Shown: piece after piece, positions 24,845-39,534 of the stretch
How the letters are laid out: every line of letters starts with the position of its first letter
Position numbering within the stretch: the stretch's first letter is position 1
Source: Bacteroidales bacterium
GTDB lineage: Bacteria > Bacteroidota > Bacteroidia > Bacteroidales > GCA-2711565
Direction of reading: 5' to 3'
NCBI GenBank assembly: GCA_963674935.2
Contig: CAXXWZ010000007.1
Location: forward strand, 1,117,500 to 1,181,499
Length of the DNA: 64,000 bases
Program-made: the position numbers and the translations under genes
Notes under the pieces: generated by a model
Databases searched by the model: none
What the model saw: only the letters and a program-made list of their open reading frames with translations
What the model was told of the DNA's origin: nothing

Positions 24845-27800
24845 ATGTTTTCACTCCACGCCCTAAAAACGATCGCCCGCTATGAAATGCGCACTTTATT
24901 GCGAGGTTGGTTTTTCAGAATTTTTGCAGGATTAACCATACTTAGTTTGGGAGGTTTTAATTTAGCCGTCTTCCTTGCTCAAAGTGGTTCTCCATGGCTT
25001 TATAGAGCCTTGCCTGCATCAATGCCTTATGTAAATCTTATCGTTTTAAATTTGGGTCAAGCTATTGTTGCTGTTTTTCTTGCATCCGAATTTTTAAAAC
25101 AGGATCGGAAAAATGATACCGTTGAAGTGATTTATGTACGCTCAATGACAAATGCCGAATATATTTTGGGCAAAACCTTCGGTATTCTGGCAGTGTTTTT
25201 TATTTTGAATTTGGTTGTGCTACTCATTGGTATGGGATTTTCTTTTATCAGTAATGATGCAGCAAAGGGTATCAGTGAGTTTTTTTACTACCCACTTTTA
25301 ATTAGTTTACCTACCTTGATTTTTATTCTAGGTTTGGCTTTCTTTTTAATGACCATTTTTAAAAATCAGGCCATAACATTCATCGTTATTTTAGGTTATA
25401 TAGCCCTAACCATTTTTTACCTTAATAACCAATACTATCACATTTTCGATTATATCGCTTATCAAGTTCCCATGTTTAATTCAAGCATCGCCGGATTTGG
25501 AAACTTACAGGAAGTCCTCATTCATCGCGGTATCTATCTTTTTATAGGGATCGGAATGATTTTCTTTACCATTTTTAAACTGCAGCGATTGCCACAAGCT
25601 AAATTATTCAGTTCTTTTCCATTCATTATTGCTTTGCTTTGTGTGGTTGTTGGTGGATTATTGGCCAATAAATATATCGTATTAAAAAAATCGAATGTCG
25701 AGCTTAAACAGCAAATGATTAGTTTAAACAATCAATATGTTCATTTTCCAAAAGTAAAGGTGATTGATTCAAAGATTGAACTTGAACATTTAGGAGAAAA
25801 AATAAAAGCAAAGGTTGAAATGCAAATAGCTAATTTCAGCGATCAAAAAATTGACACCCTCCTATTTAGTTTAAATCCCTCATTAAATATAACTTCAGTT
25901 CTGATTAACGAGGTACCTACAAATTTCAGCCGGGATTTGCAATTGGTTAAAATAATTCCTGAGTCAAAGATTGAAAGAAGTAAGATTTACAATTTAAATA
26001 TTGAATATGCTGGTTCTATAAATGAAAACACCCATTTTTTAGATGCAGATTTAGAAAACTATGAGGATAATTTTTCCTTGGAAATTTTTCGAATTCGTAA
26101 GAGATACGCCTACTTAATGGAAGATTTTGTTTGCCTCACAAGTGAATCATTGTGGTATCCCATATCGGGAGTTGGATATTCCACGCAAGATCCATCTTTG
26201 TTTTATCCTGATTTTACAAATTTTCATTTAACAGTTAACACTAAAAAAGGATTATCTGCCATTTCACAAGGAAGAACTTCAGAATTAGAAAGTTCAACCT
26301 TTAAGTTTGAGCCTGAATTTGCATTACCAAAAATTAGCTTACTAATCGGGAATTACAATAAACTTTCTCTTAAAGTCGATTCTATCAATTATAATATTTA
26401 TACCATTGAGGGAAATGAATATTTCATTTCTCACTTTACCAATTTGACTGACAGTCTTCCTGGAATTATAAGAGGTCTGAAGAATGAGTATGAAAGTCAT
26501 ATTGGACTGGAATATCCTTTTGAGCGATTTACGTTGGCTGAGGTTCCGATTCATTTTGCCTTAGACAAACACAGCTATTCAATGACAAGTGATGCCATCC
26601 AACCAGAAATGGTTTTCTATTCAGAAAAAGGTGTGACCATGGAAGAAACTGATTTTAAAAAACGTAAAAACCGATCTGAACGTCAAATGAAGAGAGACAA
26701 TGAAGAGATTTCACCCGAGGAACTTCAATCAAGAATATTTAAAAGATTTGTAAGAGGGAACTTTATGGCCAACTCAAATGAATGGTATCAATATGGTGAT
26801 GTTGTGGATCGAAATACCTATTCAATTTTTCCCAATTATTATTCATTTATTACACAATTGCAATCGCCTAAATGGCCTATGCTTGATATCGCTCTTGGTA
26901 TTTATTTAAAAGATAGAAATGAAAATGCATTTTCAGCCAGCAGATGGTTTTTCGAAGGAATTAGTAAAGGTGAAAGAGTTAATTTAGAATTGAAAAAAAG
27001 CTCTTTAGAAGAATTAATGCTAAATGGAATTTCGGAGCAACCTACAAGTGATGAGGTAGATGAGGATGAAATTGTTAGGCTGAACGATGTAATTTTAGCA
27101 AAAGGCGATAATTTGTTCTCACTCTTTAATGCCAGATATGGGCATGATGAATTTAACAATTTTTTGAATGGAATAATCATACAAAACAGACATCAGCCAT
27201 TTTCTTTTGATTCATTTAATAAGGGCATGCAAAGCAGTTTTAATGATACCATATCAAATGAAATTAGCGATTGGTATTCGAAACAAAATCTACCCGGCTT
27301 TCTAGTTAAAGACATAGAAACTTATAAAGTGTTAGAAGGAGAATTTACTAAATATCAGTTAAAATTTAAAATTTCAAATCCAGAGGATATTGATGGTTTA
27401 GTAACCGTGAATGTAGATTTAGATAATCAAGAAATACGTGAAGATAACAATCAGATTAATGTTGATTTTGCCAAAGAAATTTATATTCCCGCACATTCTG
27501 CACGTGAAGTTGGTTTTGTATTTACAACCGAACCAAACAGAATGAATATCTATACTCACATCTCAGAAAACCTTCCCAATAACCTTATTTATGATTTTGA
27601 TTCGTTTGAAGAAATTAGGAAGGTAGCTTCTTTCGACAAAATCCAAACTACTGCCTTATTTACTAATATTGACGAGCCAAATGAAATTATCGTTGACAAT
27701 GAAGATGAAGGATTTGAATTCATCCAAACTACGAATAAAGCATTTCTAAAGGCTTTGGTTGATAAAAATAAGACACAACCCTATAAATATGTTGGAATCA

Positions 27801-28198
27801 GATACTGGAATCCTCCTGTGGAGTGGAAATCGGTTTTACGTTCTGGCTTTTATGGTAAATATGTTCGTTCAGCAATGTACACGAGTTCAGGTGGAGAAGA
27901 CCGAAAAGCTGTTTGGAAAGCACAGCTGGAAGAGGGTGCATTTTATGATGTGTATTGTCATCTTGAAAAAATTAATATCCGCAGAAGAAATCAAACCCGA
28001 AAATCTGATTATCACTTTAAAGTGCATCATGCTGATGGTGTTGAAGAAATACATCTTACAGATGAAGAATTAGAAAATGGATGGAATTATTTGGGATCTT
28101 ATTTTATAAATCCGGAAAATGCGAAAGTTGAATTAGCAAATAAATCAATCGGCCGAATGGTTTTTGCCGACGCCATGAAATGGGTTAAAAATGAATAA
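24845..28198 (+). CDS. ABC-2-type permease (N-terminal ~280 aa, about 6-7 TM) fused to an ~840-aa extracytoplasmic domain with an M1-peptidase-like layout but no HExxH
   Basis: 1117 aa with hydrophobic helices up to about residue 280. After that the protein is hydrophilic. Its strings follow the order of M1 aminopeptidase N-terminal and catalytic domains (..YNLNIEYAGSINEN.., SESLWYPISG, FHLTVNTKKGLSAISQG, IGLEYPFERFTLAEVP). I found no HExxH or GAMEN anywhere in the ORF. Confidence 0.6.
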   Translation: MFSLHALKTIARYEMRTLLRGWFFRIFAGLTILSLGGFNLAVFLAQSGSPWLYRALPASMPYVNLIVLNLGQAIVAVFLASEFLKQDRKNDTVEVIYVRSMTNAEYILGKTFGILAVFFILNLVVLLIGMGFSFISNDAAKGISEFFYYPLLISLPTLIFILGLAFFLMTIFKNQAITFIVILGYIALTIFYLNNQYYHIFDYIAYQVPMFNSSIAGFGNLQEVLIHRGIYLFIGIGMIFFTIFKLQRLPQAKLFSSFPFIIALLCVVVGGLLANKYIVLKKSNVELKQQMISLNNQYVHFPKVKVIDSKIELEHLGEKIKAKVEMQIANFSDQKIDTLLFSLNPSLNITSVLINEVPTNFSRDLQLVKIIPESKIERSKIYNLNIEYAGSINENTHFLDADLENYEDNFSLEIFRIRKRYAYLMEDFVCLTSESLWYPISGVGYSTQDPSLFYPDFTNFHLTVNTKKGLSAISQGRTSELESSTFKFEPEFALPKISLLIGNYNKLSLKVDSINYNIYTIEGNEYFISHFTNLTDSLPGIIRGLKNEYESHIGLEYPFERFTLAEVPIHFALDKHSYSMTSDAIQPEMVFYSEKGVTMEETDFKKRKNRSERQMKRDNEEISPEELQSRIFKRFVRGNFMANSNEWYQYGDVVDRNTYSIFPNYYSFITQLQSPKWPMLDIALGIYLKDRNENAFSASRWFFEGISKGERVNLELKKSSLEELMLNGISEQPTSDEVDEDEIVRLNDVILAKGDNLFSLFNARYGHDEFNNFLNGIIIQNRHQPFSFDSFNKGMQSSFNDTISNEISDWYSKQNLPGFLVKDIETYKVLEGEFTKYQLKFKISNPEDIDGLVTVNVDLDNQEIREDNNQINVDFAKEIYIPAHSAREVGFVFTTEPNRMNIYTHISENLPNNLIYDFDSFEEIRKVASFDKIQTTALFTNIDEPNEIIVDNEDEGFEFIQTTNKAFLKALVDKNKTQPYKYVGIRYWNPPVEWKSVLRSGFYGKYVRSAMYTSSGGEDRKAVWKAQLEEGAFYDVYCHLEKINIRRRNQTRKSDYHFKVHHADGVEEIHLTDEELENGWNYLGSYFINPENAKVELANKSIGRMVFADAMKWVKNE

Positions 28199-29708
28199 TC
28201 ATAACAACAATATAAAAGCAAAAAATAATATGAAACTTGCGAAAATACTGATAGTTGCAATAATGCTCCTATTTATGTCCAATGTAAGCTCAGCACAAAC
28301 AAGACTTACTTTAGAAAAGGCGATGGAAATTGCGTTGCAAAATAGCCCCGACATCACAAAATCACGACTGAATATGGAGCAGAACAAAGAATATTTAAAT
28401 GCTCAGCTCGCTGCATTAAAGTCCAGATTTTCTTTTGAAGTAACTCCGTTTTCTTATTCAAAAACAGATACTTATAACGATTATTTTTCTGAATGGTATA
28501 CCTCCGAAAATAAAGGAGCCAGCGGAAGTTTAACCATTTCACAGCCGGTAAAAATTTCTGACGGAACACTTATTCTTCGGAATGATTTTGGGTATCAGGA
28601 TAATTTTTCAGAATCGAGTAGTAATAATTATAAAGGTTATAATAATAACTTGTATTTACAATACACGCAACCCTTGTTTACCTACAACCGTACTAAGATG
28701 AATCTGACTAAGAACCAGCTTAATCTTGAAAATGCAACACTGGCCTATTCGATAGAAATGTTGAATCTGGAAAGATTGGTTAATCAGGCTTTTTATTCCA
28801 TTTACCAAAAACAAATGGCTTATGAAATTGCCAAGGAGGAATATGAAAATCAAAAAGTAAGTAAGGAAATAATTGAAAGCAAGGTTGAAGGTGATTTATC
28901 TGCGCGGGAAGAATTATATCAGGCAGAATTAAATTTAGCCACAAGTAAATCGAGTTTGGATAATAGCTTTGTTGATCTTGAAAATGCAGAAGATCAATTT
29001 AAGCAACTCATTGGAATGTCTTTGTATGAAGATGTGGAAGTTATTACCGATATAAAATATACTCCGGTTGTGGTCGATCTTGATAAAGCCATTGAAAATG
29101 GCTTAGCACAACGATTAGAATTGGTACAACGTCAGATTAGTTTGGATAATGCACAATTCAGCTTAATTGAAACTTCATCAACCAACGAATTTAGAGGTAA
29201 TCTGACCTTATCTGTAGGAATTATTGGCAATAATGAAAAGCTGACAGATGTTTATAACAGGCCAACTAAAAGTCCTCAGGTTGGATTAACTTTTTCAGTT
29301 CCAATTTTTGATTGGGGGGAGCGCAAAGCCAGAATTCGGGCAGCAGAACTTGAAATTGAGACCCGAGAAATTGATAAAAAATCGCTTGAAGATGATATCA
29401 TCATTAATATCCGGCAGGTATACAGAAACTTGAACAATTTAGTGATGCAAATTAATATTGCCGAGCAAAATGACAGAAATGCGCAATTAACTTACGATAT
29501 TAATCTTGAGCGCTATAGAAATGGTGATTTGACAAGTATTGATTTACAACGTTATCAAAATCAGCTTTCTTCTAAAAAAATGGAAATGTCAAATGCACTC
29601 ATCAATTACAAGTTAGAGTTGCTTAATTTAAAAATACAATCACTTTGGGATTTTGAAAATAACACTTCTTTTATTCCACAGAACTTGCAAAATAACATCA
29701 TCAAATAA
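28191..29708 (+). CDS. TolC-family outer membrane efflux protein
   Basis: 505 aa. A signal-like MKLAKILIVAIMLLFMSNVSSAQ gives a more likely start at 28230. The OEP-type internal duplication is visible (LTLEKAMEIALQNSPD... and ...AIENGLAQRLELVQ...). Long coiled segments are present, and the gene is followed by MFP and RND genes. Confidence 0.8.
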   Translation: MNNHNNNIKAKNNMKLAKILIVAIMLLFMSNVSSAQTRLTLEKAMEIALQNSPDITKSRLNMEQNKEYLNAQLAALKSRFSFEVTPFSYSKTDTYNDYFSEWYTSENKGASGSLTISQPVKISDGTLILRNDFGYQDNFSESSSNNYKGYNNNLYLQYTQPLFTYNRTKMNLTKNQLNLENATLAYSIEMLNLERLVNQAFYSIYQKQMAYEIAKEEYENQKVSKEIIESKVEGDLSAREELYQAELNLATSKSSLDNSFVDLENAEDQFKQLIGMSLYEDVEVITDIKYTPVVVDLDKAIENGLAQRLELVQRQISLDNAQFSLIETSSTNEFRGNLTLSVGIIGNNEKLTDVYNRPTKSPQVGLTFSVPIFDWGERKARIRAAELEIETREIDKKSLEDDIIINIRQVYRNLNNLVMQINIAEQNDRNAQLTYDINLERYRNGDLTSIDLQRYQNQLSSKKMEMSNALINYKLELLNLKIQSLWDFENNTSFIPQNLQNNIIK

Positions 29709-29741: not shown

Positions 29742-30884
29742 ATGAAACGAGCATGTATTAACCAGCGCAGAACCCAAAATTTAAACAGTTGCGTGCACGT
29801 TGCATCTGCAACTCTTACTTCAAATTTCTTACGGATAAAACGATTTTTGATCTTTATTTTTGCTGGAATACTTCTGGCATCCTGTAATGATAACAGCACC
29901 GAACTTAATAAGGATATTTCTGTTCCTGTTTCGGTGTTGGAAATCAAACCTTCATCTATTGAAAAATACATCAGTACCACAGGAACTGTAAGGCCGGTTA
30001 AGGAAGTAACCTTAACAGCCGAAATTAATGGTTTATATCAGTTACAAACCAATCCAAGAACAAAAAAGCCTTATGCCTTAGGTGATTATATAAGCGCTGG
30101 GGAAGCCATTGTTGGAATTATAAACCCTGAATATAAGAATGGAATTCAAAATAACTCAGTTGAACTGCAGCTTGAAACTACCAAACAAACTTATGATAAG
30201 CAAAAGAGCCTTTACGAAAAAGGTGGCGTTACACTCAGTGATATGAAAAATGCTGAGATTAACTATATGAATGCCAAGTATGCTTTGGAAGATGCTGCGA
30301 TTAAACTTCGAAAAATGACCGTACTCTCCCCTATTTCAGGTGTTATTGTTGAGTTACCTTATCAAACACAAAATACTCCGTTATTAACCGGTACCGCACT
30401 TGCAAAAGTGATGGATTACAGTCAGTTATTGATGGAAATTAATTTGGCCGAGAAAAACATTAATGAGGTTAAAAGAAATCAAGATGTTCGGATCATGAAT
30501 TACACCATCCCTGATGATACTTTGACTGGTATAATTAGTCAAATCTCTCCAGCCATTGATGCAGATACCCGTTCTTTCAGAGCAGTATTAACCATTGAGA
30601 ATCCAAAGCTATTGCTTAGGCCCGGGATGTTTGCCAAAGGAGAAATTGTGGTCGCATCTGTTGATCATACCATCGTAATTCCGAAAGAAGTTATTCTTTC
30701 AAAACAAAAAGGAAATACGGTTTATGTGATCGACAAAGGATTAGCAGTTGAACGCATTCTTGCATTTGGCCTGGAAAATCCAAATGAAGTTCAAATTATT
30801 TCTGGTTTAAATATGAACGAACGTCTTGTTACAAAAGGATTTGAGACCTTAAGAAATCGATCGAAAGTAAAAGTAGTTAAGTAG
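29742..30884 (+). CDS. Efflux RND periplasmic adaptor subunit (HlyD/MFP family lipoprotein)
   Basis: 380 aa with lipobox FAGILLASC. It has a coiled-coil hairpin region (QLETTKQTYDKQKSLYEKGGVTLSDMKNAEINYMNAKYALEDA), lipoyl-like halves (V.P..EV.L.AEI.G / V.SPISGVI) and a beta-barrel with C-terminal domain. The start codon is uncertain. Confidence 0.85.
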   Translation: MKRACINQRRTQNLNSCVHVASATLTSNFLRIKRFLIFIFAGILLASCNDNSTELNKDISVPVSVLEIKPSSIEKYISTTGTVRPVKEVTLTAEINGLYQLQTNPRTKKPYALGDYISAGEAIVGIINPEYKNGIQNNSVELQLETTKQTYDKQKSLYEKGGVTLSDMKNAEINYMNAKYALEDAAIKLRKMTVLSPISGVIVELPYQTQNTPLLTGTALAKVMDYSQLLMEINLAEKNINEVKRNQDVRIMNYTIPDDTLTGIISQISPAIDADTRSFRAVLTIENPKLLLRPGMFAKGEIVVASVDHTIVIPKEVILSKQKGNTVYVIDKGLAVERILAFGLENPNEVQIISGLNMNERLVTKGFETLRNRSKVKVVK

Positions 30885-30945: not shown

Positions 30946-33900
30946 ATGAAGAAAATTACGCGTTTTTCAGTACAGTATCCGGTTACCGTTACCATGATTG
31001 TTATTGCAATCATCTTACTGGGTTATATATCGTTCGGGAAACTTAGTGTCGACTTATTTCCCGACATGAATGCACCCCGGATTTTTGTAGAAATAAAGGC
31101 AGGTGAACGTCCTCCAGAGGAAGTCGAAAAACAATATATCGAAAACATTGAAGCTCAAGCTATTCGCCAAAAAGGGGTTACTCAAGTCTCCTCTGTTTGT
31201 ATGGTTGGCTCAGCAAGAGTTACTGTTGAATATGCCTGGGGAAGGGACATGGATGAAGCATTTCTGGATTTACAAAAAGCATTAACAACCTATAGTCAGA
31301 ATTCCGATTTAGAAGAGTTCACTATTACGCAACATGATCCGAATGCCGCGCCTGTAATGATTATCGGCATGTTCCATTCTGAAAATTCCGACATGGATGA
31401 GTTACGGAAAATTGGTGAAAATTATATCAGAAATGAATTGGTTCGTTTAGAGGGAATTGCCGACGTTACCTTAACAGGAACTGAAGAAAAAGAAATTTTG
31501 ATTGAAACAAGCCCTTACATGCTTGATGCCTTCGGGTTAACTTCAGATGATATTGTGGCTCAGATTCAAAACATGAACCGCAATGTTTCGGGTGGAAGCA
31601 TTGTTGAAATGGGCAAAAAATATATCATTAAGGGAGCCGGATTAATTAAAAATTTGGATGATCTAAAAAACATGGTCATCACTTACAAACAGGTCGGTGC
31701 AGCCGCGAATCCACAAGCAGCACAAAGTATTTCAAAGAAAGTTCCTGTGTACTTAAAAGACATTGCAGAAGTTAGTTTTGTAAATAAAGATCCGTTAAAC
31801 ATTGTGAGAATTAACGGTAAAAGATGTGTTGGATTATCCATTTATAAAGAAACCGGATTCAATACCGTATCTGCAGTTAATAATCTGAATGAAACCTTAG
31901 AATCCATCAAAAAAGCCTTACCAGGATACGAATTTATTGTAGTTCAAAACCAAGGAGACTTTATTCAAAATTCAATTTCCGAGGTCGAAGAAACCGCCTT
32001 AATCGGAATCATCATCGCGGTAATAGTGCTATTCATATTTTTGAGAAGATTAAAAGTTACGCTCATTATCAGTTTTGCCATTCCAATTTCCATCATTGCA
32101 ACATTTAACTTAATGTACTTTAACGGGCTAAGCCTGAATATCATGACTTTAGGTGGGTTGGCACTTGGAGCCGGAATGCTTGTGGATAATGCCATTGTGG
32201 TTGTAGAAAATATCTTCAGAAATATGGAACAAGGCATGAGCGTTAAAGAAGCAGCCATTACCGGAACCGCTGAAGTGGGCGGAGCTATAACGGCTTCAAC
32301 TTTAACAACCATAGTGGTGTTTTTGCCCATTGTTTATTTACAAGGCGTTTCAGGTGCCTTATTTAAAGATCAGGCATGGACAGTCGCATTTTCTTTGCTT
32401 GCATCTTTATTTGTAGCAATTTTAGTAATTCCAATGCTCTTTAATTTTGCTTATGGTAAGAAGAAAGTTAAAACGGTTGTTAAATCAATTAAAATTGGTT
32501 GGTACGGTCAACTATTAGCAAAATTATTAAATTATAGATATGTGGTTATCTTGATCGCAGCAATTATGCTTGCAATCACAGTTTATATTTATCCTTTGGT
32601 AGGAAGTGAATACTTACCAAAAACTGAAACCAGTGAATTCAATCTTGATATCGTTCTTACTGAGGGAACAGAATTAAATAGAACTGCTTCAACGGTTGAT
32701 GCCATCGAACAAATGATTGCGTTAGTACTTGAAGGTAAAACAGAAACCATTTTTAGTCAAATAGGTCCTGCCACTTCAATTAGTTCGGATAAATCAGTAT
32801 TTAAAAACGAGAACAGTGCCTCAATTAAAGTAAAATTAAAGCCTGAGGTTGTGCCATTTTCAGAAAGCATTATTTCAACTATTACTGAATTGGTTAGTGG
32901 AATTCCGGATGCAGAAATTACAGTACAACGGGATGAAACTGCTTTGCAATCAACTGTTGGTGCTGATGAGGCACCATTAATTGTTGAGCTTAAAGGTAGA
33001 GATTTGGCGATGCTGGAGAGTATTTCTGAAACCATTAAAACTAACCTGAAAGAAGTACCTGAATTATTTAATTTAAAAACTTCCATCGAAGCAGGAGCTC
33101 CTGAAATTGATGTCGTAATTGATCGGTATAAAGCCAGTTTATTTAACCTTTCAGCGGATGGTATTGCATCGCAGCTCAATGAACTTTTAATGGGCAAAAA
33201 TGCAGGGAAATATGAGAAGTCAGGTGAGATGAGTGACATTACGGTTAAGATGCCCGACATCAGCCTTTACGAATTTTCATCCATCAAATTAAAAAGTGGT
33301 ACGATGGAAGTTCCTCTTTACGAAGTGGCAAATATCAAACGATCTACTTCACCTAAGCAATTGCTACGACGAAATCAAAATCGGATCACAAAAATTACAG
33401 CTGATATTGACAGAAGTATTGCTTTCGATAAAGTAATTGAAAGGGTTAATAACCAACTTAGTGCATTGGTATTACCCGACGGATACACAACAGAAATTGT
33501 AGGGGTTGAGAAAAAACGTCAGGATGCCATGTCGAATTTAAGTTTCGCACTTATTTTATCAGTCATTTTGGTTTACATGGTGATGGCTTCACAATTTGAA
33601 TCCATCATTCATCCATTCACAATTTTGTTAACCATACCTCTAGCTGGTGTGGGTGCAATTTGGGCATTTTTCATTATCGGAACTTCACTAAATATAATGG
33701 CCTTTATTGGAATCATTATGCTGGCTGGGATAGCAGTGAACGACTCAATTATTCTTGTGGATGCCATAAATCAGTTTAAATCGAAAGGCCATTCACTAAA
33801 AGACTCCATCATGAGGGCAGGTGAAAATCGAATAAGGCCAATAGTGATGACCAGTATTACTACAATTTTAGCCTTATTACCATTAACAATTGGTATTGGA

Positions 33901-34065
33901 GAAAGTGCATCACTGCGCTCTCCTATGGCTATTGCAGTAATTGCTGGACTTGTTACGAGTACAATTCTCACATTGATCGTTATTCCTTGCGTGTATTACA
34001 TTTTTGAAACTATGAAGGATGCCATCATGGGGAAAGAAGATCAACCAGAGCTAACAAATTTATAA
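30946..34065 (+). CDS. Efflux RND transporter permease subunit (AcrB/CzcA superfamily)
   Basis: 1039 aa of canonical length. It shows the N-terminal TM followed by a large loop, and the conserved TM4 region GGLALGAGMLVDNAIVVVENIFR. The second-half repeat has GIIMLAGIAVNDSIILVDAI and RPIVMTSITTILALLPL. Confidence 0.9.
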   Translation: MKKITRFSVQYPVTVTMIVIAIILLGYISFGKLSVDLFPDMNAPRIFVEIKAGERPPEEVEKQYIENIEAQAIRQKGVTQVSSVCMVGSARVTVEYAWGRDMDEAFLDLQKALTTYSQNSDLEEFTITQHDPNAAPVMIIGMFHSENSDMDELRKIGENYIRNELVRLEGIADVTLTGTEEKEILIETSPYMLDAFGLTSDDIVAQIQNMNRNVSGGSIVEMGKKYIIKGAGLIKNLDDLKNMVITYKQVGAAANPQAAQSISKKVPVYLKDIAEVSFVNKDPLNIVRINGKRCVGLSIYKETGFNTVSAVNNLNETLESIKKALPGYEFIVVQNQGDFIQNSISEVEETALIGIIIAVIVLFIFLRRLKVTLIISFAIPISIIATFNLMYFNGLSLNIMTLGGLALGAGMLVDNAIVVVENIFRNMEQGMSVKEAAITGTAEVGGAITASTLTTIVVFLPIVYLQGVSGALFKDQAWTVAFSLLASLFVAILVIPMLFNFAYGKKKVKTVVKSIKIGWYGQLLAKLLNYRYVVILIAAIMLAITVYIYPLVGSEYLPKTETSEFNLDIVLTEGTELNRTASTVDAIEQMIALVLEGKTETIFSQIGPATSISSDKSVFKNENSASIKVKLKPEVVPFSESIISTITELVSGIPDAEITVQRDETALQSTVGADEAPLIVELKGRDLAMLESISETIKTNLKEVPELFNLKTSIEAGAPEIDVVIDRYKASLFNLSADGIASQLNELLMGKNAGKYEKSGEMSDITVKMPDISLYEFSSIKLKSGTMEVPLYEVANIKRSTSPKQLLRRNQNRITKITADIDRSIAFDKVIERVNNQLSALVLPDGYTTEIVGVEKKRQDAMSNLSFALILSVILVYMVMASQFESIIHPFTILLTIPLAGVGAIWAFFIIGTSLNIMAFIGIIMLAGIAVNDSIILVDAINQFKSKGHSLKDSIMRAGENRIRPIVMTSITTILALLPLTIGIGESASLRSPMAIAVIAGLVTSTILTLIVIPCVYYIFETMKDAIMGKEDQPELTNL

Positions 34066-34089: not shown

Positions 34090-37000
34090 ATGAGTTTCAT
34101 AATAAAAAGAAAAGTCTTAATAGCCATGCTGTTTACCAGCTTGAGCTTACTGGGATATTATTCATATAAGCGATTACCGGTTGAATTGATTCCGAATGCG
34201 CAACTTCCATTTCTATTTGTGCAGGTTGGTAGCTCAATCGAAGTTGATCCACGCTACATGGAAAGTCAGGCCATCATTCCTCTTGAAGGTGCAATTGGCA
34301 CCCTCGAAGGTGTTGATAAAATCGAGTCAAATGCCGGGCAGCGACAAGGGAGTATCAGAATTTCTTATCAACCAGATGCAAATATCAAATTTGCTTACTT
34401 AAAATTAGCCGAAAAAGTTGATGAAGTTAAGCGAACTTTACCACAAGGCTTTTTTGTTCAGGTATTTAAGTTTGATTTGGAGCAGATTAACAACATGTTC
34501 ATGACCATACAGGCACGTGGAAGTGGTGGCGTTGATCGCGTTAGACAAATGGTAGATAAGGAAATTCTTAATCCATTAAAAAATATCGATGGTATTGCAA
34601 ATGCACAGGTTTTTGGTGGACGAGAAAAATCGATAGAAATACGATTGGATGAAGAGGTTTTAAAAAGTCATGGCCTCTCCCCTGCTGATGTAAGAACTGC
34701 GATTAACCAAAATCAAATGTCGCGTACTTTTGCGGGTAAAGTAAACGAGCATAATCAAATCTATTTCGTTAATGTTGTTTCTGAATTTAAGGATATCAAT
34801 GATCTTTATGAATTAGTTGTTCTTCAAAAAGGCCCTGTTAAACTTAAAGATATAGCTGACATACATTATGGAGTAAAGGAGGAAGTTTCTTACAGTCGTG
34901 TGAATGGGAAAGAATCGGTAACCATTGAATTAACAAGGGATGCACAAGCAAACATCATCAATCTGTCAAATGAGGTCATCAAACGCATTGACCAATTTAA
35001 CAATGAACTGGCAGAGAAAGATCTCGAACTGGTGGTCGAATTTAATTCGGCTGAAACCATGGAGAAAAATATTGACCTGATTATCAATTTAGCACTTGTT
35101 GGTGGAGTTTTAGCCATTTTCATTTTATGGATTTTTCTTAAAAATTTCCGTTTGGTAGTTGCCGTGGCTTTGGCCATTCCAATTTCAGTTTATACAGCAT
35201 TTAATTTTTTCTATGCCTTCGATATTTCAATAAACACGCTAACCCTGTTGGGTATGGCACTAGCCATTGGAATGTTATTGGATAACAGTGTAGTTGTTTT
35301 AGAAAATATCTATCGCTTGGCAGGAAAAAAAGTGAATCCTGATCAAGCAGTAATTCAGGGAACCAAAGAAGTGTGGCGCTCAATATTTGCGGCTACACTC
35401 ACAACTATAACAGTCTTCCTTCCTTTTGTGTTTTCAACTAATTTCTTTATAAGTTTGTTGGGAAAACATATTGGGGTTTCAATTATTTCAACGCTTCTAG
35501 TTTCATTGGTTGTTGCCTTACTTTTAATTCCGATGATTACGCATGCTTTTCTTAAAAAGCGAAATCCACTCAAGCCCATACGTTTTGAAAGCATTTCCTA
35601 TCACAATCGCCTCATTCAGATTTACAGAGTTTTGCTTAAAACTTGTATGCGAAATCCTGGAAAAACCATTATGGGTGCCTTGGGTATTTTCTTCCTCACT
35701 TTAATCATTAGCCTTGGTGTAAGTGCCATTTCATCGCAAGAAGCAGAATTGACTGAGATGAAGCTATACGTTACCCTTCCGAGCGGAACAACATTAGCAA
35801 ATACAGACCTTATCGTTAGAGAAGTTGAAAATAAACTTGTTGATTTGGAAGAAAAGAAGGATATCATCAGTCAGGTTTATGAAGAAGAGGCAATTATTAC
35901 TATTTCTTTGGTTGAAGATTTTAAAAAAATTAGAAATTATTCTGTTCCCGGAATTAAAAATGAAATCATTGATAAATTGGAAGAATTGCGTCAGGCTGAA
36001 TTTAGCTGGGATCCACCGGCTACAGGGCAACGATTTGGCAGTGGTGGTTTTGAAAATGATGATGGCTTTTCAAGAATGCTTGGAATAGGTACACAACAAG
36101 AAAAAGTCGTAATCAAAGGTCAGGATTTTGATCGAATGCTTGATTTAGCCAAAGATGTTGAGTACTATTTGAAACAGCTGAACTCAATGGAGCGGGTAAG
36201 AATTAATACGCCGGCTAAGCGTCCTGAACTGATGCTAAGTTTTGATAAACAACTCATGTCGCTTTTCGATATTCCAATTACTTCCGTTTTATCAGAACTA
36301 AATTCATTTCCAAAAGAATTTTCAAGCGGGATTATTTTTAAACAAGGTACAGATGAATACGATATTCAAATTATTACTGAACTAACTGAAAAACAAAAGT
36401 CGCGGAATGTTTATGACTTAAAACATCTAAATGTTAAGAACAGTCAAAATGCGCGTTTTGAGATTCAAAATATTAGTGAATTTAATTTTACTGAAGGGCT
36501 TTCTACCATTAACAGAACGAATCAGGAAAAACAACTTACGCTTAGATATGAATTTATTTCTGAGGTATCGGACGATAATGATTTATTAAACGCTTCCAGA
36601 ATTGAAGTAGATGAACTAATTGCAAGTATCAATCTTCCATCCGATATTGCGGTTGAAGTAATCCATGAAGAGAATGATTTAGGTGAATTTGGATTTTTAT
36701 TAACGATGGCCTTCATCTTAATTTTCATGATTCTGGCATCTGTTTTTGAATCTTTCAGTGTACCATTCGTCATGATGTTTTCTATCCCGATGGCTGGTAT
36801 AGGCTCTTTAATCGCTTTAGTACTAACAGGTACTTCTATCATGAACGCCAACGTGTTTATTGGTTTCCTAATCCTTTTAGGAATAGTGGTGAACAATGGA
36901 ATCATTATGATCGATTATACGCGCGTACTTCAAAAAAGAGGTTATTCTGAATCGCGTGCCATGATGATGGCCGGACTCGCCAGAGTTCGTCCAATCTTAA

Positions 37001-38805
37001 TTACAGCAATCACAACCATCATAGCATTAATACCTTTGGCACTTGGAAAAGCTGAATTTGTTACGCAGATTGGTGTACCATTCGCCATTACAGTAATAGG
37101 TGGTTTGGCAGTTAGCACCTTGCTCACATTGGTTTTTATTCCTACCGTCAATTCAGGTTTACAAACATCTTTAAAATGGATCAGATCACAATCGATTTTG
37201 ATTAAAGCAATTTTGATTATAATCTGGTCAGGTGGCTCAATTTATATTTTCCTAGAAGTTGATAGTAGAATTTGGCAAATTATTGAATTTATTTTACTGA
37301 TTATTCTTGTTCCTGCTACAATTTATTTTATCAAACATTCTTTACGGCAAGCTAATGAAAAGCTTATTGATTCTAAAACGCCACTTCGAATTGAAATCAG
37401 AAATTTGGTAAAGATTTATGATTGGGACAGTCGTTTTGTGAGAGAGTGGAAATCTGGTTTAAAAACCCGTAAACGACTTGGTTTAGATAAAGAAATTTCT
37501 TCAATAAAAGATTTGGATGGACTTATGTGGCAACTTCCACTCATCGGTTTTGCGATCTATTTTATCTATTTCCATCTTGAAAGTGGATTCTGGTTTTTCA
37601 TACTTCCGGTTGCGCTTTATATTATGCTAACTGGAATGTTAAAACCATTAAGATTATACACGACTCATCTTAAAGAGGCCGAGAAAAAGAAGTGGATGAG
37701 GAGACTACTTTTTACATGCTTAGGGCTCGTGCGTTGGTTATTTCCATTAATTGCACTTGTCATTATTTTCAATAAATATGAATTACTTGGATTAATAATC
37801 CCATTTGGCTTCTTCTGGTATCTAGCCATTCTAATAAAGGTGACCTCTGATAAAATTTACAAAGAGAAAATCAATATCAATAGAATAACAGGAAGATTTA
37901 AAGGAATTAGAAAAGCGTTTAGTCGCTTTGTCCTCATCATTCCTATCATTGGAAAGAAAAAAACGCCATTCAAAGCAGTTAAAGGGGTTTCATTCAATAT
38001 TGAACACGGGATGTTTGGTTTGCTTGGCCCAAATGGTGCGGGTAAATCAACGCTGATGAGAATCATTTGTGGGATTTTGGATCAAAGTTATGGCCAAATT
38101 ACAATTAACGGAATTGATGTTAGAGAGAAACGTGAAGAACTCCAGAGTTTAATTGGATACCTCCCACAGGAATTTGGGATGTACGAAAACATGACCGCAT
38201 GGGAGTTCCTTCATTATATGGGTTTATTAAAGAAACTGCATAATACTGAAGAACGAAATAAAAGAGTTGAGTATGTTTTGAATGCAGTTCACATGTGGGA
38301 TAGCCGTGATACAAAAATTGGTTCCTTCTCTGGAGGAATGAAGCAAAGAATCGGTATCGCACAAATTTTACTTCATTTACCTCGTATACTGGTGGTTGAT
38401 GAACCTACAGCAGGACTTGATCCTAGAGAAAGGATTCGTTTCAGAAATCTCTTGGTAGAATTAAGTAAAGAAAGAATTGTTATTTTTTCTACACACATTA
38501 TTGAGGATGTTGCCAGCTCATGTAATCACGTGGCAGTTATGAAATCCGGTTATCTGCAATATTTAGGAAAACCAATAGAGATGGCTAAAATTGCCGAAGG
38601 TAAAATTTGGAATTTACAATTACACCATCAAGAGTTTGATAAAATTAAGGATAGCCTGAAAATTATTCATCACATGCGGGATGGTGAAACAATTAGAATG
38701 AGGTGTTTATCGAATAAACAACCTCATGCTGCAGCAAATCTGGTTAAAGCTAACCTGGAGGATGCATACTTATGCCTTTTACATCAGGAAGACAAGATTG
38801 AGTAA
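34090..38805 (+). CDS. RND transporter permease fused via six extra predicted TM helices to a C-terminal ABC ATPase domain (1571 aa)
   Basis: Residues 1 to ~1025 are a full RND permease (GMALAIGMLLDNSVVVLENIYR; GFLILLGIVVNNGIIMIDYT; RPILITAITTIIALIPLALG). Two hydrophobic helices follow, then an NBD-beta1-like strand PLRIEIRNLVKIYD (37381-37422), then four more hydrophobic helices. The ORF ends in a complete NBD with Walker A GPNGAGKS (38026-38049), GYLPQEF, FSGGMKQR, ILVVDEPTAGLD and STHI, ending NLEDAY. It is one continuous frame with no internal stop and no in-frame ATG at the junction. Confidence 0.8.
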   Translation: MSFIIKRKVLIAMLFTSLSLLGYYSYKRLPVELIPNAQLPFLFVQVGSSIEVDPRYMESQAIIPLEGAIGTLEGVDKIESNAGQRQGSIRISYQPDANIKFAYLKLAEKVDEVKRTLPQGFFVQVFKFDLEQINNMFMTIQARGSGGVDRVRQMVDKEILNPLKNIDGIANAQVFGGREKSIEIRLDEEVLKSHGLSPADVRTAINQNQMSRTFAGKVNEHNQIYFVNVVSEFKDINDLYELVVLQKGPVKLKDIADIHYGVKEEVSYSRVNGKESVTIELTRDAQANIINLSNEVIKRIDQFNNELAEKDLELVVEFNSAETMEKNIDLIINLALVGGVLAIFILWIFLKNFRLVVAVALAIPISVYTAFNFFYAFDISINTLTLLGMALAIGMLLDNSVVVLENIYRLAGKKVNPDQAVIQGTKEVWRSIFAATLTTITVFLPFVFSTNFFISLLGKHIGVSIISTLLVSLVVALLLIPMITHAFLKKRNPLKPIRFESISYHNRLIQIYRVLLKTCMRNPGKTIMGALGIFFLTLIISLGVSAISSQEAELTEMKLYVTLPSGTTLANTDLIVREVENKLVDLEEKKDIISQVYEEEAIITISLVEDFKKIRNYSVPGIKNEIIDKLEELRQAEFSWDPPATGQRFGSGGFENDDGFSRMLGIGTQQEKVVIKGQDFDRMLDLAKDVEYYLKQLNSMERVRINTPAKRPELMLSFDKQLMSLFDIPITSVLSELNSFPKEFSSGIIFKQGTDEYDIQIITELTEKQKSRNVYDLKHLNVKNSQNARFEIQNISEFNFTEGLSTINRTNQEKQLTLRYEFISEVSDDNDLLNASRIEVDELIASINLPSDIAVEVIHEENDLGEFGFLLTMAFILIFMILASVFESFSVPFVMMFSIPMAGIGSLIALVLTGTSIMNANVFIGFLILLGIVVNNGIIMIDYTRVLQKRGYSESRAMMMAGLARVRPILITAITTIIALIPLALGKAEFVTQIGVPFAITVIGGLAVSTLLTLVFIPTVNSGLQTSLKWIRSQSILIKAILIIIWSGGSIYIFLEVDSRIWQIIEFILLIILVPATIYFIKHSLRQANEKLIDSKTPLRIEIRNLVKIYDWDSRFVREWKSGLKTRKRLGLDKEISSIKDLDGLMWQLPLIGFAIYFIYFHLESGFWFFILPVALYIMLTGMLKPLRLYTTHLKEAEKKKWMRRLLFTCLGLVRWLFPLIALVIIFNKYELLGLIIPFGFFWYLAILIKVTSDKIYKEKININRITGRFKGIRKAFSRFVLIIPIIGKKKTPFKAVKGVSFNIEHGMFGLLGPNGAGKSTLMRIICGILDQSYGQITINGIDVREKREELQSLIGYLPQEFGMYENMTAWEFLHYMGLLKKLHNTEERNKRVEYVLNAVHMWDSRDTKIGSFSGGMKQRIGIAQILLHLPRILVVDEPTAGLDPRERIRFRNLLVELSKERIVIFSTHIIEDVASSCNHVAVMKSGYLQYLGKPIEMAKIAEGKIWNLQLHHQEFDKIKDSLKIIHHMRDGETIRMRCLSNKQPHAAANLVKANLEDAYLCLLHQEDKIE

Positions 38806-38826: not shown

Positions 38827-39534
38827 ATGAAAACATACGATAGATTTCAGATTGTTTGGAAAAGTATTACTTATAACTTAAAGATTATTTTTGCTAATAA
38901 ATTTATTTTCTTTTTGTTCGCGGCAGTAGCTTTTTACCTGATGGTGATAGGAATTATGCTTTTTGAGGATGGTGCAGTTGATGGCTCCGATATATTTAAC
39001 ACACTACTATTTCCAGGCGTTTTAATACTTTTTTATCCTGTCATTTTTAATATTCAGAACGATAAAGATGCCCGTATGCTTGAAATCATATTTGGAATTC
39101 CTAATTATCGTTATAAAGTTTATTTATTACGATTTGGATTAACAATGATGATGATGTTTGTATTTTTAATGTTGATGGGTTGGTTCGCTGTTTTTGCTGT
39201 GGCCAGAATCCCAATACTTCCCATCGTTTATCAGCTTATGTATCCTTTATTATTTTTATCAGGTTTGTCATTTATGTTTGCCACACTAATAAAAAATGCT
39301 AATTCCACAGCTGCTATTATGGTGATTATTGGACTAACTTTTTTTATTCTTGCTGAACCCTTGCAATATAGCAAATGGAATATTTTTCTCGATCCTTTTG
39401 GAGCACCTTCTGATATGAGCCAAACCATATGGGCAAATGTTATTCGAGAAAACAGAATTATTTTATTGGTAGGCACAATTATTTCAATTTTATGGAGTCT
39501 AATAAATTTACAAAGAAGAGAGCGCTTTGTTTAA
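38827..39534 (+). CDS. Small ABC-2-type membrane permease (about 6 TM)
   Basis: 235 aa with six hydrophobic segments and a long first external loop. It lies 21 nt downstream of the NBD-containing fusion gene. Confidence 0.6.
   Translation: MKTYDRFQIVWKSITYNLKIIFANKFIFFLFAAVAFYLMVIGIMLFEDGAVDGSDIFNTLLFPGVLILFYPVIFNIQNDKDARMLEIIFGIPNYRYKVYLLRFGLTMMMMFVFLMLMGWFAVFAVARIPILPIVYQLMYPLLFLSGLSFMFATLIKNANSTAAIMVIIGLTFFILAEPLQYSKWNIFLDPFGAPSDMSQTIWANVIRENRIILLVGTIISILWSLINLQRRERFV

What the first reader, a model, noticed from the sequence alone, without database searches (positions are those of the whole stretch)
34090..38805. Translational fusion of a full RND permease to an ABC ATPase domain in one 1571-aa ORF
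Seen: residues 1 to ~1025 have every landmark of an AcrB/CzcA-type permease. These include both halves' conserved TM4/TM10-like DN motifs (LLDNSVVVLENIYR; VVNNGIIMIDYT). Where the neighbouring paralogue (30946-34065) stops about 25 residues after its last TM, this ORF runs on. It continues in the same frame for about 545 more residues, comprising six further hydrophobic helices and a complete NBD (Walker A 38026-38049, Q-loop, signature FSGGMKQR, Walker B, H-loop). There is no stop, and no in-frame ATG between about 37160 and 37520, so a separate downstream gene has no obvious start. Topology is self-consistent: RND termini are cytoplasmic (established), and 2 + 4 extra helices return the chain to the cytoplasm both at the beta1-like strand and at the NBD. 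Inference: a proton-driven and an ATP-driven module are covalently coupled. RND pumps are trimers and NBDs act as dimers, so a heteromeric RND assembly with the unfused paralogue could present a single fused NBD to the free ATPase (23945-24826). Caveat: this assembly shows two apparent indel breaks elsewhere. However, an indel would change the frame, whereas both sides of this junction and the 800-nt linker are in one frame.
Basis: partly seen in the sequence, partly recalled or inferred. Interest (0 to 1): 0.9.

Follow-up and report, generated by a model that had tools for sequence, protein, structure and literature searches.

The report
RND efflux pump fused to ABC ATPase
One 1571-residue protein really does join a complete RND efflux permease to a complete ABC ATPase, and this fusion, with its seven-gene operon, is conserved across several bacterial phyla but appears undescribed, suggesting an export machine that uses two energy sources.

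Summary
ORF 34090-38805 (+) encodes 1571 aa: a full ACR_tran RND permease (residues 2-1019), a two-helix hairpin, the first beta-strand of an ABC ATPase, a ~175-aa insertion with four more TM helices, then the rest of a motif-complete ABC-2-type NBD.

It is not an assembly artefact. In 23 of 24 related genomes with enough upstream DNA, one 1554-1616-aa frame spans both parts. These include isolates of Prolixibacter, Draconibacterium, Parabacteroides and Marivirga. A syntenic relative aligns without a single indel, with saturated synonymous sites and dN/dS about 0.04-0.07 across the junction.

Best reading (inferred): a type V ABC exporter hard-wired to an RND tripartite pump for two-stage export.

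A rival reading is an ATP-driven or ATP-gated RND. Both RNDs lack AcrB's D408 and K940, but the proton-driven ZneA is similarly reduced.

No paper describing this was found. I rate it a new variant of a known kind, interest 0.75.

The parts
23945..24826 (+). Free ABC-2/DrrA-GldA-type ATPase (NBD-A, 293 aa), first gene of the operon and a paralogue of the fused NBD
   Evidence: Pfam ABC_tran E 9e-31. Best NCBIfam matches are drrA and GldA, both below their cut-offs. It is 40% identical to the spliced fused NBD over its full length. Orthologues (63-69% identity) precede the same gene series in L045, L053, L069, L074, L077 and L081.
24845..28198 (+). 1117-aa membrane protein: N-terminal ABC-2-type TMD (~270 aa, 6-7 TM), then ~850 aa extracytoplasmic region ending in a Golvesin_C domain
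   Evidence: Pfam ABC2_membrane_3 and ABC2_membrane_2 are weak (E 4e-5 and 7e-4). Golvesin_C is E 8e-12. It is conserved upstream of the OMF in nearly all loci. The L033 counterpart carries a Peptidase_M1-like stretch. No HEXXH or GxMEN motif is present here.
28191..29708 (+). Outer-membrane factor (TolC-like, 505 aa)
   Evidence: Pfam OEP E 7e-42; conserved position.
29742..30884 (+). Periplasmic adaptor / membrane-fusion protein (380 aa)
   Evidence: Pfam HlyD_D23 and HlyD_3; conserved position.
30946..34065 (+). Unfused RND permease paralogue (RND-1, 1039 aa)
   Evidence: ACR_tran E 5e-216. It is about 28% identical to the fused RND and 38-56% identical to its orthologues in other genomes. 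TM4 reads D-N and TM10 reads N-D.
34090..38805 (+). RND::ABC fusion ORF, 1571 aa
   Evidence: It is conserved as one frame in 23 of 24 loci. Fourteen full-length (1550-1585 aa) 50%-identity cluster representatives are found.
34093..37146 (+). RND permease domain (residues 2-1019, TM1-12 and two periplasmic loops)
   Evidence: Pfam ACR_tran 3-1015 of 1021. Best solved homologues are MdtB 9lyq and ZneA 4k0e.
35275..35307 (+). TM4 motif LLDNSVVVLEN: D398 corresponds to AcrB D407, and N399 replaces D408
   Evidence: Alignment to MdtB. D-N (D-S in two) in all 24 fused orthologues and D-N in 23 of 24 unfused orthologues (one, L008, has D-D).
36880..36918 (+). TM10 motif GIVVNNGIIMIDY: N935 replaces AcrB K940. 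TM11 R965 and T972 (nt 36982-37005) keep R971 and T978
37195..37356 (+). TM13-TM14 hairpin linking the cytoplasmic RND C-terminus to beta1
   Evidence: AF2 helices 46-66 and 70-99 of the model, pLDDT 86-95. The 3-residue periplasmic turn has no Lys or Arg.
37384..37419 (+). Displaced first beta-strand of the NBD (LRIEIRNLVKIY), followed by a basic cytoplasmic helix (nt 37432-37476)
   Evidence: AF2 strand 111-120, pLDDT about 91. All other strands in the model lie in the NBD. Splice test. I111, V117, K118 and Y120 are invariant in 82 sequences.
37504..37866 (+). Four-TM insertion (TM15-18) between beta1 and beta2 of the NBD
   Evidence: AF2 helices 149-172, 178-204, 208-240 and 243-269. The loops follow the positive-inside rule. 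No structural match in PDB. Sequence relatives occur only in this fusion family: 98 clusters among 1.84 billion.
37969..38802 (+). NBD core plus C-terminal domain. Walker A 38026-38049 (K1319), Q-loop 38158-38178, signature 38326-38349, Walker B 38386-38421 (E1438), H-loop 38485-38502
   Evidence: Pfam ABC_tran. The motifs are invariant in 82 homologues. Foldseek best hits are TM_1403 4yer, TM0544 1vpl and LptB.
38827..39534 (+). 235-aa six-TM ABC-2 (type V) permease, 21 nt downstream of the fusion; the likely membrane partner of the fused NBD
   Evidence: Always immediately downstream in related loci. About a third of the listed homologues carry PF12698 ABC2_membrane_3. The AF2 model (pLDDT 83.8) matches essentially only ABCG/ABCA, PmtCD and NosY membrane domains, TM-score 0.52-0.65.

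Best explanation
Shown:
- The ORF is a genuine, conserved single polypeptide. It consists of a 12-TM RND permease, a two-helix hairpin, and a catalytically complete ABC-2-type ATPase whose first beta-strand is separated from the rest of the domain by a four-helix membrane insertion.
- It belongs to a conserved seven-gene operon: free ATPase, ABC-2 permease with a large periplasmic domain, outer-membrane factor, membrane-fusion protein, unfused RND, RND::ABC fusion, small ABC-2 permease.

Inferred mechanism:
- The fused NBD docks on the adjacent 235-aa ABC-2 permease and, as a dimer, forms a type V ABC exporter. This exporter is held against an RND trimer by the fusion and its six extra helices.
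- The ABC module uses ATP to move or extract the substrate from the cytoplasm or inner leaflet to the periplasmic face.
- The RND-adaptor-OMF module then takes the substrate from there across the outer membrane.
- This would be a hard-wired version of the two-step cooperation known between single-component inner-membrane pumps and tripartite RND pumps.

The 3-versus-2 symmetry problem is most simply solved by a heterotrimer of the two RND paralogues, as in MdtB2C. One option is two fused plus one unfused subunit, giving an NBD-B homodimer. The other is one fused plus two unfused, giving a heterodimer of NBD-B with the free ATPase. I cannot tell which applies. The substrate is unknown.
For: Reality and constraint of the fusion:
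- One frame of 1554-1616 aa in 23 of 24 loci, including four cultured isolates.
- Fourteen full-length cluster representatives.
- Window versus L084: no indel in 1568 codons, pS 0.72-0.85, amino-acid identity 70-92% across the linker, dN/dS about 0.04-0.07.

NBD catalytic competence:
- Walker A, Q-loop, signature, Walker B with Glu, D-loop and H-loop are invariant in 82 homologues.

Split NBD:
-.

Partner permease:
- The 235-aa permease is always adjacent, has the ABC-2 fold, and the NBD is of the DrrA/GldA type that serves ABC-2 permeases.

Co-inheritance of the parts:
- All seven components co-occur in the same order in Bacteroidota, Latescibacterota and Zixibacteria loci.
- In the short-linker variant L033, the components recovered in the fetched locus (the two ABC-2 permease types, both RNDs and the OMF) recur in a different order, so it is the set of parts that is kept.

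What selection holds together:
- In L033 the NBD follows TM12 by about 50 residues with no TM hairpin. Selection therefore acts on RND-NBD proximity, not on the linker as such.

Precedents (PMC8277102, read):
- MdtBC is a known RND heterotrimer.
Against: - No experiment exists; no interaction, stoichiometry or substrate is shown.
- Sequence similarity of the 235-aa protein to ABC-2 families is weak. Pfam gives no hit for the window copy, and Foldseek E-values are 0.016 or worse despite good TM-scores.
- The six extra helices match nothing known, so their role as a tether or interface is conjecture.
- Both RNDs lack AcrB D408 and K940. This leaves room for a different energy-coupling scheme.
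- One lineage appears to encode the RND and NBD parts separately. The covalent link may therefore add little beyond co-assembly.
Confidence: 0.5

Rival explanations
1. ATP-driven or ATP-gated RND. The NBD dimer acts on the RND membrane domain itself, through TM13-18 and the C-terminus of TM12. ATP binding and hydrolysis then drive or license the RND conformational cycle, replacing or supplementing proton coupling. The ABC-2 permeases would serve only as the NBD docking scaffold.
For: - Both RNDs of the operon lack two residues of the AcrB relay triad in essentially all orthologues: D408 to N, and K940 to N. The one exception is the unfused RND of L008, which keeps D-D in TM4 and has S at the K940 position.
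- According to PMC8277102, substitution of these residues abolishes AcrB transport, and D408 is the residue that is protonated during the cycle.
- In the short-linker variant the NBD is only about 50 residues from TM12. That places it directly under the RND membrane domain.
Against: - D398 (D407), R965 (R971) and T972 (T978) are kept.
- The proton-dependent ZneA has D-G in TM4 and L at the K940 position. MexK and TriC have R there. A reduced or altered relay is therefore not evidence of lost proton coupling.
- The trait is shared by the unfused paralogue.
- NBDs are always accompanied by canonical ABC-2 permease genes. An NBD acting on the RND alone would not need them.
- RNDs have no known coupling helix for an NBD.
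Confidence: 0.2
2. Co-assembly or stoichiometry fusion without mechanistic coupling. The RND pump and the ABC-2 exporter are independent transporters of one pathway. The fusion only guarantees co-localisation or equal expression.
For: - A lineage with four distinct sequences in five or six contigs encodes a 1099-aa RND (with TM13-14) and a 478-aa beta1-4TM-NBD as separate overlapping ORFs. Both are intact and conserved.
- Linker sequence is the least conserved part, at 30-49% versus 65-71% for the NBD.
Against: - The fusion persists across phyla and in two linker architectures.
- The linker is under strong purifying selection and has invariant Trp, Pro and Arg positions.
- The split lineage cuts exactly between TM14 and beta1 and keeps every helix. 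This fits a non-covalent version of the same assembly rather than independence.
Confidence: 0.15
3. Assembly artefact or pseudogene. Two adjacent genes were joined by a sequencing indel or a lost stop codon in this assembly.
For:
- Some long-read metagenome assemblies of relatives are visibly frameshifted (L002, L027).
Against: - The same single frame is found in 23 of 24 independent genomes, including isolates and complete chromosomes.
- There is no indel against L084 over 1568 codons, with saturated synonymous sites.
- The linker has homologues only inside such fusions.
- There is no plausible separate start for the NBD, whose beta1 lies upstream of four TM helices.
Confidence: 0.02

Closest known systems
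MdtABC-type tripartite RND pump with two paralogous RND subunits (MdtB2C heterotrimer)
   Same: Two paralogous full-length RND genes lie in tandem in one operon with a single adaptor. The best solved homologue of the fused RND is MdtB (9lyq). PMC8277102 documents heterotrimers for MdtBC.
   Different: - Not orthologous. NCBIfam MdtB and MdtC scores are 270-278 bits against cut-offs of 1584-1774.
- The OMF is encoded in the operon.
- One paralogue carries six extra TM helices and an ABC ATPase.
- The relay triad is D-N/N instead of D-D/K.
Type V (ABC-2) exporters: DrrAB, Wzm-Wzt, TarGH, NosFY, PmtCD, ABCG
   Same: - The NBD is of DrrA/GldA type with a C-terminal domain.
- The adjacent 6-TM permease has the ABCG/PmtCD/NosY fold, and its homologues hit PF12698.
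   Different: - The NBD is C-terminally fused to an RND permease.
- Its beta1 strand is separated from beta2 by a 4-TM insertion.
- The operon contains a second NBD-permease pair plus RND, adaptor and OMF.
MacAB-TolC, the ABC-driven tripartite efflux pump
   Same: An ABC ATPase, a HlyD-family adaptor and a TolC-like OMF work in one envelope-spanning export system.
   Different: - MacB is a type VII ABC protein (N-terminal NBD, 4 TM, FtsX-type periplasmic domain). No FtsX or MacB_PCD domain is found here.
- Here the periplasmic pump body is an RND protein.
E. coli YbhGFSR (ABC-2 exporter with a HlyD-like adaptor)
   Same: ABC-2 permeases and a DrrA-like ATPase are encoded with a membrane-fusion protein. 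This is recalled from the literature; PMC7190983 appeared but was not read.
   Different: YbhGFSR has no RND component and no fusion. YbhF has tandem NBDs.
SecDF acting with SecA-SecYEG
   Same: An RND-superfamily, proton-driven module acts on the periplasmic side of a substrate that an ATPase drives from the cytoplasmic side (PMC8277102). It is a conceptual precedent for ATP plus proton-motive force in one export path.
   Different: The proteins are separate, the families are different (SecA is not an ABC protein), the substrate is protein, and there is no adaptor or OMF.
Functional cooperation of single-component inner-membrane pumps with AcrAB-TolC
   Same: Two-step logic. One pump delivers substrate to the periplasm or outer leaflet, and the RND tripartite pump takes it from there (PMC8277102).
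   Different: In that case the pumps are unlinked and diffusion-coupled. Here the two modules are in one polypeptide and one operon.

Membership tests
RND superfamily permease (Pfam ACR_tran, HAE-like) | Full-length 12-TM fold with two large periplasmic loops | tested here: met
   ACR_tran positions 3-1015 of 1021, E 6e-157. Full-length alignments to ZneA and AdeB-type structures. Hydropathy.
RND superfamily permease (Pfam ACR_tran, HAE-like) | AcrB-type proton relay: D407, D408 (TM4), K940 (TM10), R971, T978 (TM11) | tested here: not met
   D398, R965 and T972 are present, but N399 replaces D408 and N935 replaces K940. The same holds in 24 fused orthologues and, with one exception (L008: D-D in TM4, S at the K940 position), in the 24 unfused orthologues. 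ZneA, MexK and TriC also deviate at these positions, so this excludes the AcrB-type triad, not RND membership.
RND superfamily permease (Pfam ACR_tran, HAE-like) | Encoded with a periplasmic adaptor and an outer-membrane factor | tested here: met
   HlyD_D23 and HlyD_3 protein at 29742-30884 and OEP protein at 28191-29708; conserved in related loci.
RND superfamily permease (Pfam ACR_tran, HAE-like) | Trimeric (homo- or hetero-) assembly | not testable with these tools
   No multimer prediction or experiment is available.
ABC ATPase (ABC_tran) | Walker A, Q-loop, LSGGQ-type signature, Walker B with catalytic Glu, D-loop, H-loop | tested here: met
   GPNGAGKS, LPQEF, FSGGMKQR, VVDEPTAGLD and STH; invariant in 82 homologues.
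ABC ATPase (ABC_tran) | Contiguous NBD polypeptide (beta1 directly followed by beta2) | tested here: not met
   About 175 residues with four TM helices lie between beta1 (1099-1110) and beta2 (about 1294). The short-linker variant has a soluble insert of about 55 aa at the same place.
ABC ATPase (ABC_tran) | ATP hydrolysis | not testable with these tools
   Needs biochemistry.
Type V / ABC-2 exporter | DrrA/GldA-like NBD paired with an adjacent 6-TM ABC-2 permease | tested here: met
   The NBD best matches GldA and drrA models. The 235-aa neighbour has six TM helices, its homologues hit PF12698, and its AF2 model matches essentially only type V membrane domains, TM-score 0.52-0.65. Direct sequence evidence for the window copy is weak.
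Type V / ABC-2 exporter | NBD2-TMD2 assembly in which the NBD docks on the permease | not testable with these tools
   Inferred from gene adjacency only.
GldA (gliding-motility ABC ATPase, TIGR03522) | Score above the equivalog cut-off | tested here: not met
   181.7 bits for the fused NBD and 193 bits for the free ATPase, against a cut-off of 402.6.
MdtB/MdtC | Score above the equivalog cut-offs | tested here: not met
   MdtC 277.7 bits against 1774; MdtB 269.8 bits against 1584.
MacB-type (type VII) tripartite ABC transporter | FtsX-type 4-TM domain with a MacB periplasmic core domain | tested here: not met
   No FtsX or MacB_PCD hit in any protein of the operon.

The most novel reading that the evidence does not exclude
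The NBD dimer, anchored by TM13-18 under the RND membrane domain, drives or gates the RND conformational cycle with ATP. This would be the first primary-active, or dual ATP-plus-proton-motive-force, RND pump. The loss of the D408 and K940 relay residues in both RND paralogues would then be its signature.
Probability: 0.17. Interest if true: 0.92.

Novelty: new variant of a known kind. Interest (0 to 1): 0.75.

Why it matters
RND pumps are the textbook proton-driven efflux machines, and ABC transporters are the textbook ATP-driven ones. Tripartite pumps are described as using one or the other.

Here the two are joined in one protein, inside an operon that also carries a second ATPase, two ABC-2 permeases, a second RND, an adaptor and an outer-membrane channel. 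This is conserved across phyla. It would provide:
- a natural test case for how substrate is handed from an inner-membrane exporter to an RND pump;
- a natural solution to a 3-fold versus 2-fold symmetry mismatch;
- possibly an RND whose cycle is coupled to ATP.

It also shows an ABC ATPase fold interrupted by a membrane insertion between its first two strands.

The family occurs in cultivable bacteria (Prolixibacter, Draconibacterium, Marivirga, Parabacteroides), so it can be tested directly. Databases currently label these proteins only as 'efflux RND transporter permease subunit' or 'ABC-type multidrug transport system ATPase subunit', which hides the architecture.

Tried and rejected
- **Artefact hypothesis:** rejected by the comparative data.
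- **Foldseek of the junction-linker-NBD model:** only the NBD matched. The six helices match nothing; whole-chain alignments to type IV exporters have rmsd 23-27 Å and are meaningless.
- **Profile search of the 235-aa permease family against PDB sequences:** no hit. Pfam on the window copy gave nothing useful.
- **BLASTP of the 235-aa permease against the 1117-aa protein:** no detectable similarity. Paralogy of the two membrane domains is therefore not shown.
- **Promoter and terminator scans of 22500-41000:** counts at shuffle level, uninformative.
- **Exact look-ups of the window's fusion and permease proteins in the contig index:** not on record, so the source record was not identified.
- **The word-index protein search:** it listed only proteins under 1000 aa, so its hits are contig-edge or frameshift fragments. 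Full-length relatives came from genome loci and the exhaustive search.
- **Stand-alone linker-NBD proteins:** P0259 and P0328 start inside TM13/TM14 and look truncated. They are not evidence of a free ancestor.
- **'Relay lost, therefore ATP-driven' argument:** weakened by ZneA, MexK and TriC.
- **GldA, MdtB/C and MacB membership:** rejected.
- **Literature:** six searches and a targeted read of the 2021 Chem Rev review found no description of an RND-ABC fusion. The library holds open-access papers only.
Full report
**1.

The window has one ATG-to-stop ORF at 34090-38805 (+) of 1571 codons. Pfam places a full-length ACR_tran domain on residues 2-1019 (model 3-1015 of 1021, E 6e-157). It places an ABC_tran domain on residues 1298-1441 (E 3e-31) of the same protein.

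- Walker A GPNGAGKS at nt 38026-38049.
- Signature FSGGMKQR at nt 38326-38349.
- Walker B ILVVDEPTAGLD at nt 38386-38421.
- H-loop at nt 38485-38502.
- The TM4 and TM10 motifs at nt 35275-35307 and 36880-36918.
- No in-frame Met between residues about 1024 and 1146.

**2. Anatomy of the C-terminal 550 residues**

I predicted residues 991-1571 with AlphaFold2 on an 82-sequence alignment (pLDDT 85.3, pTM 0.71). In order, the model gives:
- RND TM12.
- Two helices forming a tight hairpin (TM13 1036-1056, TM14 1060-1089).
- A ten-residue beta-strand (1101-1110, pLDDT about 91).
- A basic cytoplasmic helix.
- Four long helices (TM15-18, 1139-1259).
- A further short amphipathic helix (1271-1283), then the NBD.

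All other strands in the model belong to the NBD, so the isolated strand must pair with it.

I tested this by splicing out the insertion. LRIEIRNLVKIY joined to the core NBD aligns with the operon's free ATPase from that protein's residue 1 to its end (40% identity, E 5e-82). The GldA profile match then begins at position 3 instead of 14. The NBD is therefore split: beta1, then about 175 residues with four TM helices, then beta2 onward.

Loop charges fit the topology. Cytoplasmic loops carry 2, 3, 8, 6 and 12 Lys+Arg, and periplasmic turns carry none.

Foldseek against the PDB matches only the NBD and its C-terminal domain (TM_1403 4yer, TM0544 1vpl, LptB). The six helices resemble nothing solved.

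**3. It is not an assembly artefact**

A pattern scan of one genome per species returned 28 loci matching the whole junction-linker-NBD query. In 23 of the 24 loci with enough upstream DNA, a single open frame of 1554-1616 aa spans RND, linker and NBD. These include:
- Prolixibacter bellariivorans ATCC BAA-1284.
- Draconibacterium mangrovi GM2-18.
- Parabacteroides massiliensis SN4.
- The complete Marivirga tractuosa ac6 chromosome.
- A Latescibacterota chromosome.

An exhaustive phmmer search with the 277-aa linker alone, against 1.84 billion cluster representatives, found only 98 proteins (61 at E 1e-10 or better). All 14 full-length ones are 1550-1585 aa with the linker at about 1020-1300. 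The rest are fragments, and three checked ones are N-truncated RND-linker-ABC.

A syntenic close relative on a 4.1-Mb contig (L084) has a 1568-aa gene call with both domains. The window aligns to it over 1568 codons without one indel. Synonymous differences are saturated (pS 0.72-0.85). Amino-acid identity is:

| Region | Identity |
|---|---|
| RND | 87% |
| TM13-14 | 76% |
| beta1 / cytoplasmic helix | 92.5% |
| TM15-18 | 70% |
| NBD | 88% |

Where it can be computed, dN/dS is 0.036 (RND), 0.065 (junction and TM13-14) and 0.035 (NBD). The junction and linker are therefore translated in this frame and are under purifying selection.

**4. Context: a conserved seven-gene operon**

Upstream and downstream on the same strand, with gaps of about 20-60 nt or short overlaps, lie:

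| Coordinates | Product |
|---|---|
| 23945-24826 | Free DrrA/GldA-like ABC ATPase |
| 24845-28198 | 1117-aa protein: N-terminal ABC-2 membrane domain, about 850 extracytoplasmic residues, Golvesin_C domain |
| 28191-29708 | OEP outer-membrane factor |
| 29742-30884 | HlyD-family adaptor |
| 30946-34065 | Unfused RND |
| 34090-38805 | RND::ABC fusion |
| 38827-39534 | 235-aa six-TM protein |

tblastn shows the series big protein, OMF, adaptor, RND, fusion, 235-aa protein in essentially every related locus. Six further loci were fetched through the free ATPase. They show that ATPase (63-69% identity) at the head of the same series, including in a Zixibacteria genome.

The 235-aa protein is an ABC-2 permease, on three grounds:
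- About a third of its listed homologues carry PF12698.
- Some are named ABC-2 permease by UniRef.
- Its AlphaFold2 model (pLDDT 83.8, pTM 0.81) matches essentially only type V membrane domains (ABCG25, ABCG2, ABCG5/8, PmtCD, NosY), with TM-scores 0.52-0.65.

It is the obvious membrane partner for the fused NBD.

**5. Variants**

*Short-linker class.* L033 encodes a 1438-aa fusion with ACR_tran 5-1041 and ABC_tran 1159-1301. TM12 is followed by about 50 residues, then beta1 (LVIVTKNLTRIY), a soluble insert of about 55 aa, and beta2. It has no extra TM helices. P0345, P0346 and P0349 are of this kind. Its operon contains the same kinds of parts in another order: a 235-aa-like permease, RND-1, a 919-aa ABC-2 plus M1-like protein, the fusion, and the OMF. 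Its fused RND and NBD are about equidistant from both window paralogues, so I cannot say whether the fusion arose once or twice.

*Long-linker class outside Bacteroidota.* It is also seen in proteins labelled Acidobacteria, Latescibacterota, Krumholzibacteria and Spirochaetales.

*Split lineage.* L001 and L083 (3.7-Mb contigs) encode a 1099-aa RND with TM13-14 and a 478-aa beta1-4TM-NBD as ORFs overlapping by 17 nt. Four distinct 478-aa sequences exist on five or six contigs, and the junction DNA is the same in two of them. This looks like a real split, or a programmed frameshift, exactly at the TM14/beta1 boundary. A systematic sequencing error is not excluded.

**6. Energy-coupling residues**

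Aligned to MdtB and AcrB numbering, the fused RND compares as follows:

| AcrB residue | Fused RND residue |
|---|---|
| D407 | D398 |
| D408 | N399 |
| K940 | N935 |
| R971 | R965 |
| T978 | T972 |

The unfused paralogue has D-N and N-D at the TM4 and TM10 positions. The pattern D-N (rarely D-S) with N at the K940 position holds in all 24 fused orthologues and in 23 of the 24 unfused ones; the unfused RND of L008 has D-D in TM4 and S at the K940 position.

PMC8277102 states that D407, D408 and K940 form the relay triad, that substitutions abolish transport, and that D408 is the residue protonated in the cycle. This could mean a changed coupling mode.

However, the alignments to solved RNDs show D-G and L at these positions in ZneA, and R at the K940 position in MexK and TriC. 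The deviation therefore does not prove loss of proton coupling, and it is not specific to the fused paralogue.

**7. Mechanism**

*Shown.* A conserved covalent RND::ABC protein; a motif-complete NBD (all catalytic motifs invariant in 82 homologues); an adjacent ABC-2 permease; and co-inheritance of two NBDs, two ABC-2 membrane domains, two RNDs, one adaptor and one OMF.

*Inferred (confidence about 0.5).* The fused NBD works with the 235-aa permease as a type V ABC exporter that is physically tethered to an RND tripartite pump. ATP-driven movement of substrate to the periplasmic face is then followed directly by RND-adaptor-OMF expulsion.

[quoted passage not shown] It also echoes SecA plus SecDF.

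The trimer-versus-dimer mismatch can be solved by an MdtB2C-like heterotrimer. The two NBDs are 40% identical paralogues with the same C-terminal domain, and both are canonical. My data do not decide between these.

*Rivals.* An ATP-driven or ATP-gated RND (about 0.2); a fusion that only secures co-assembly (about 0.15); an artefact (about 0.02).

**8. Comparison with the known, and novelty**

The system shares:
- Tandem RND paralogues with MdtABC.
- NBD and permease type with ABC-2 exporters.
- The ABC-adaptor-OMF idea with MacAB-TolC and YbhGFSR.

It fails the specific membership tests for GldA, MdtB/C and MacB.

Public databases hold these proteins under generic automatic names: 'efflux RND transporter permease subunit' and 'ABC-type multidrug transport system ATPase subunit'. 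Six full-text searches, and a targeted read of the 2021 Chem Rev review of tripartite systems, found no description of an RND-ABC fusion. That library covers open-access papers and bioRxiv only.

I rate it a new variant of a known kind. It is real, conserved, unreported, and testable in cultured bacteria.

Noticed in passing
L001:6718-11437 and L083:718-5437: One lineage (3.7-Mb contigs from ERZ21831104 and ERZ21862665) has the same operon, but the RND (with TM13-14, 1099 aa) and beta1-4TM-NBD (478 aa) are separate ORFs overlapping by 17 nt. Four distinct 478-aa sequences exist. This is a real split, a programmed frameshift or a systematic error.
   Followed up: partly
L033:6539-10855 (also P0345, P0346, P0349): A second architecture of RND::ABC fusion has a linker of about 115 aa and no extra TM helices, but still has an insert of about 55 aa between beta1 and beta2. 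Its operon has the same kinds of parts in a different order.
   Followed up: partly
window 24845-28198: The 1117-aa protein combines an ABC-2 membrane domain with about 850 extracytoplasmic residues ending in a Golvesin_C domain. Its counterpart in L033 has a Peptidase_M1-like stretch. The window copy has no HEXXH or GxMEN motif, so any peptidase-like domain would be inactive.
   Followed up: partly
window 35275-35307, 36880-36918; 30946-34065: Both RND paralogues of the operon carry D-N in TM4 and N at the AcrB K940 position in nearly all orthologues examined (one unfused orthologue, L008, has D-D and S). Whether unrelated RNDs of the same subfamily share this was not determined.
   Followed up: partly
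L019:3822-7000 (Marivirga tractuosa ac6, complete genome): The unfused RND paralogue is broken into two ORFs (494 and 574 aa) in this complete genome, while the fusion next to it is intact.
   Followed up: no
window 12791-21076 (-): A 2761-aa protein with HYDIN/VesB-like Ig, SprB repeat, fn3, LTD and PKD-like domains and a C-terminal Por_Secre_tail. It is probably a type IX-secreted cell-surface adhesin.
   Followed up: no
window 22134-22661 (+): A 175-aa protein with a phage Tail Collar domain (E 8e-26) and a weak Gp10_C match, with no other obvious phage genes nearby.
   Followed up: no
window 39777-45292 and L084:10808-16377: The genes downstream of the operon (221-aa protein with no family match, cupin, enolase-superfamily enzyme, Sortilin/BNR protein on the minus strand, acetyl-CoA synthetase-like ATP-grasp protein) are syntenic in L084 but absent from more distant loci. 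They are probably not part of the system.
   Followed up: partly
tool behaviour: The word-index protein search returned only proteins under 1000 aa for this query. All its RND+ABC hits are therefore fragments. The full-length 1550-1616-aa proteins appeared only in genome loci and in the exhaustive representative search.
   Followed up: yes
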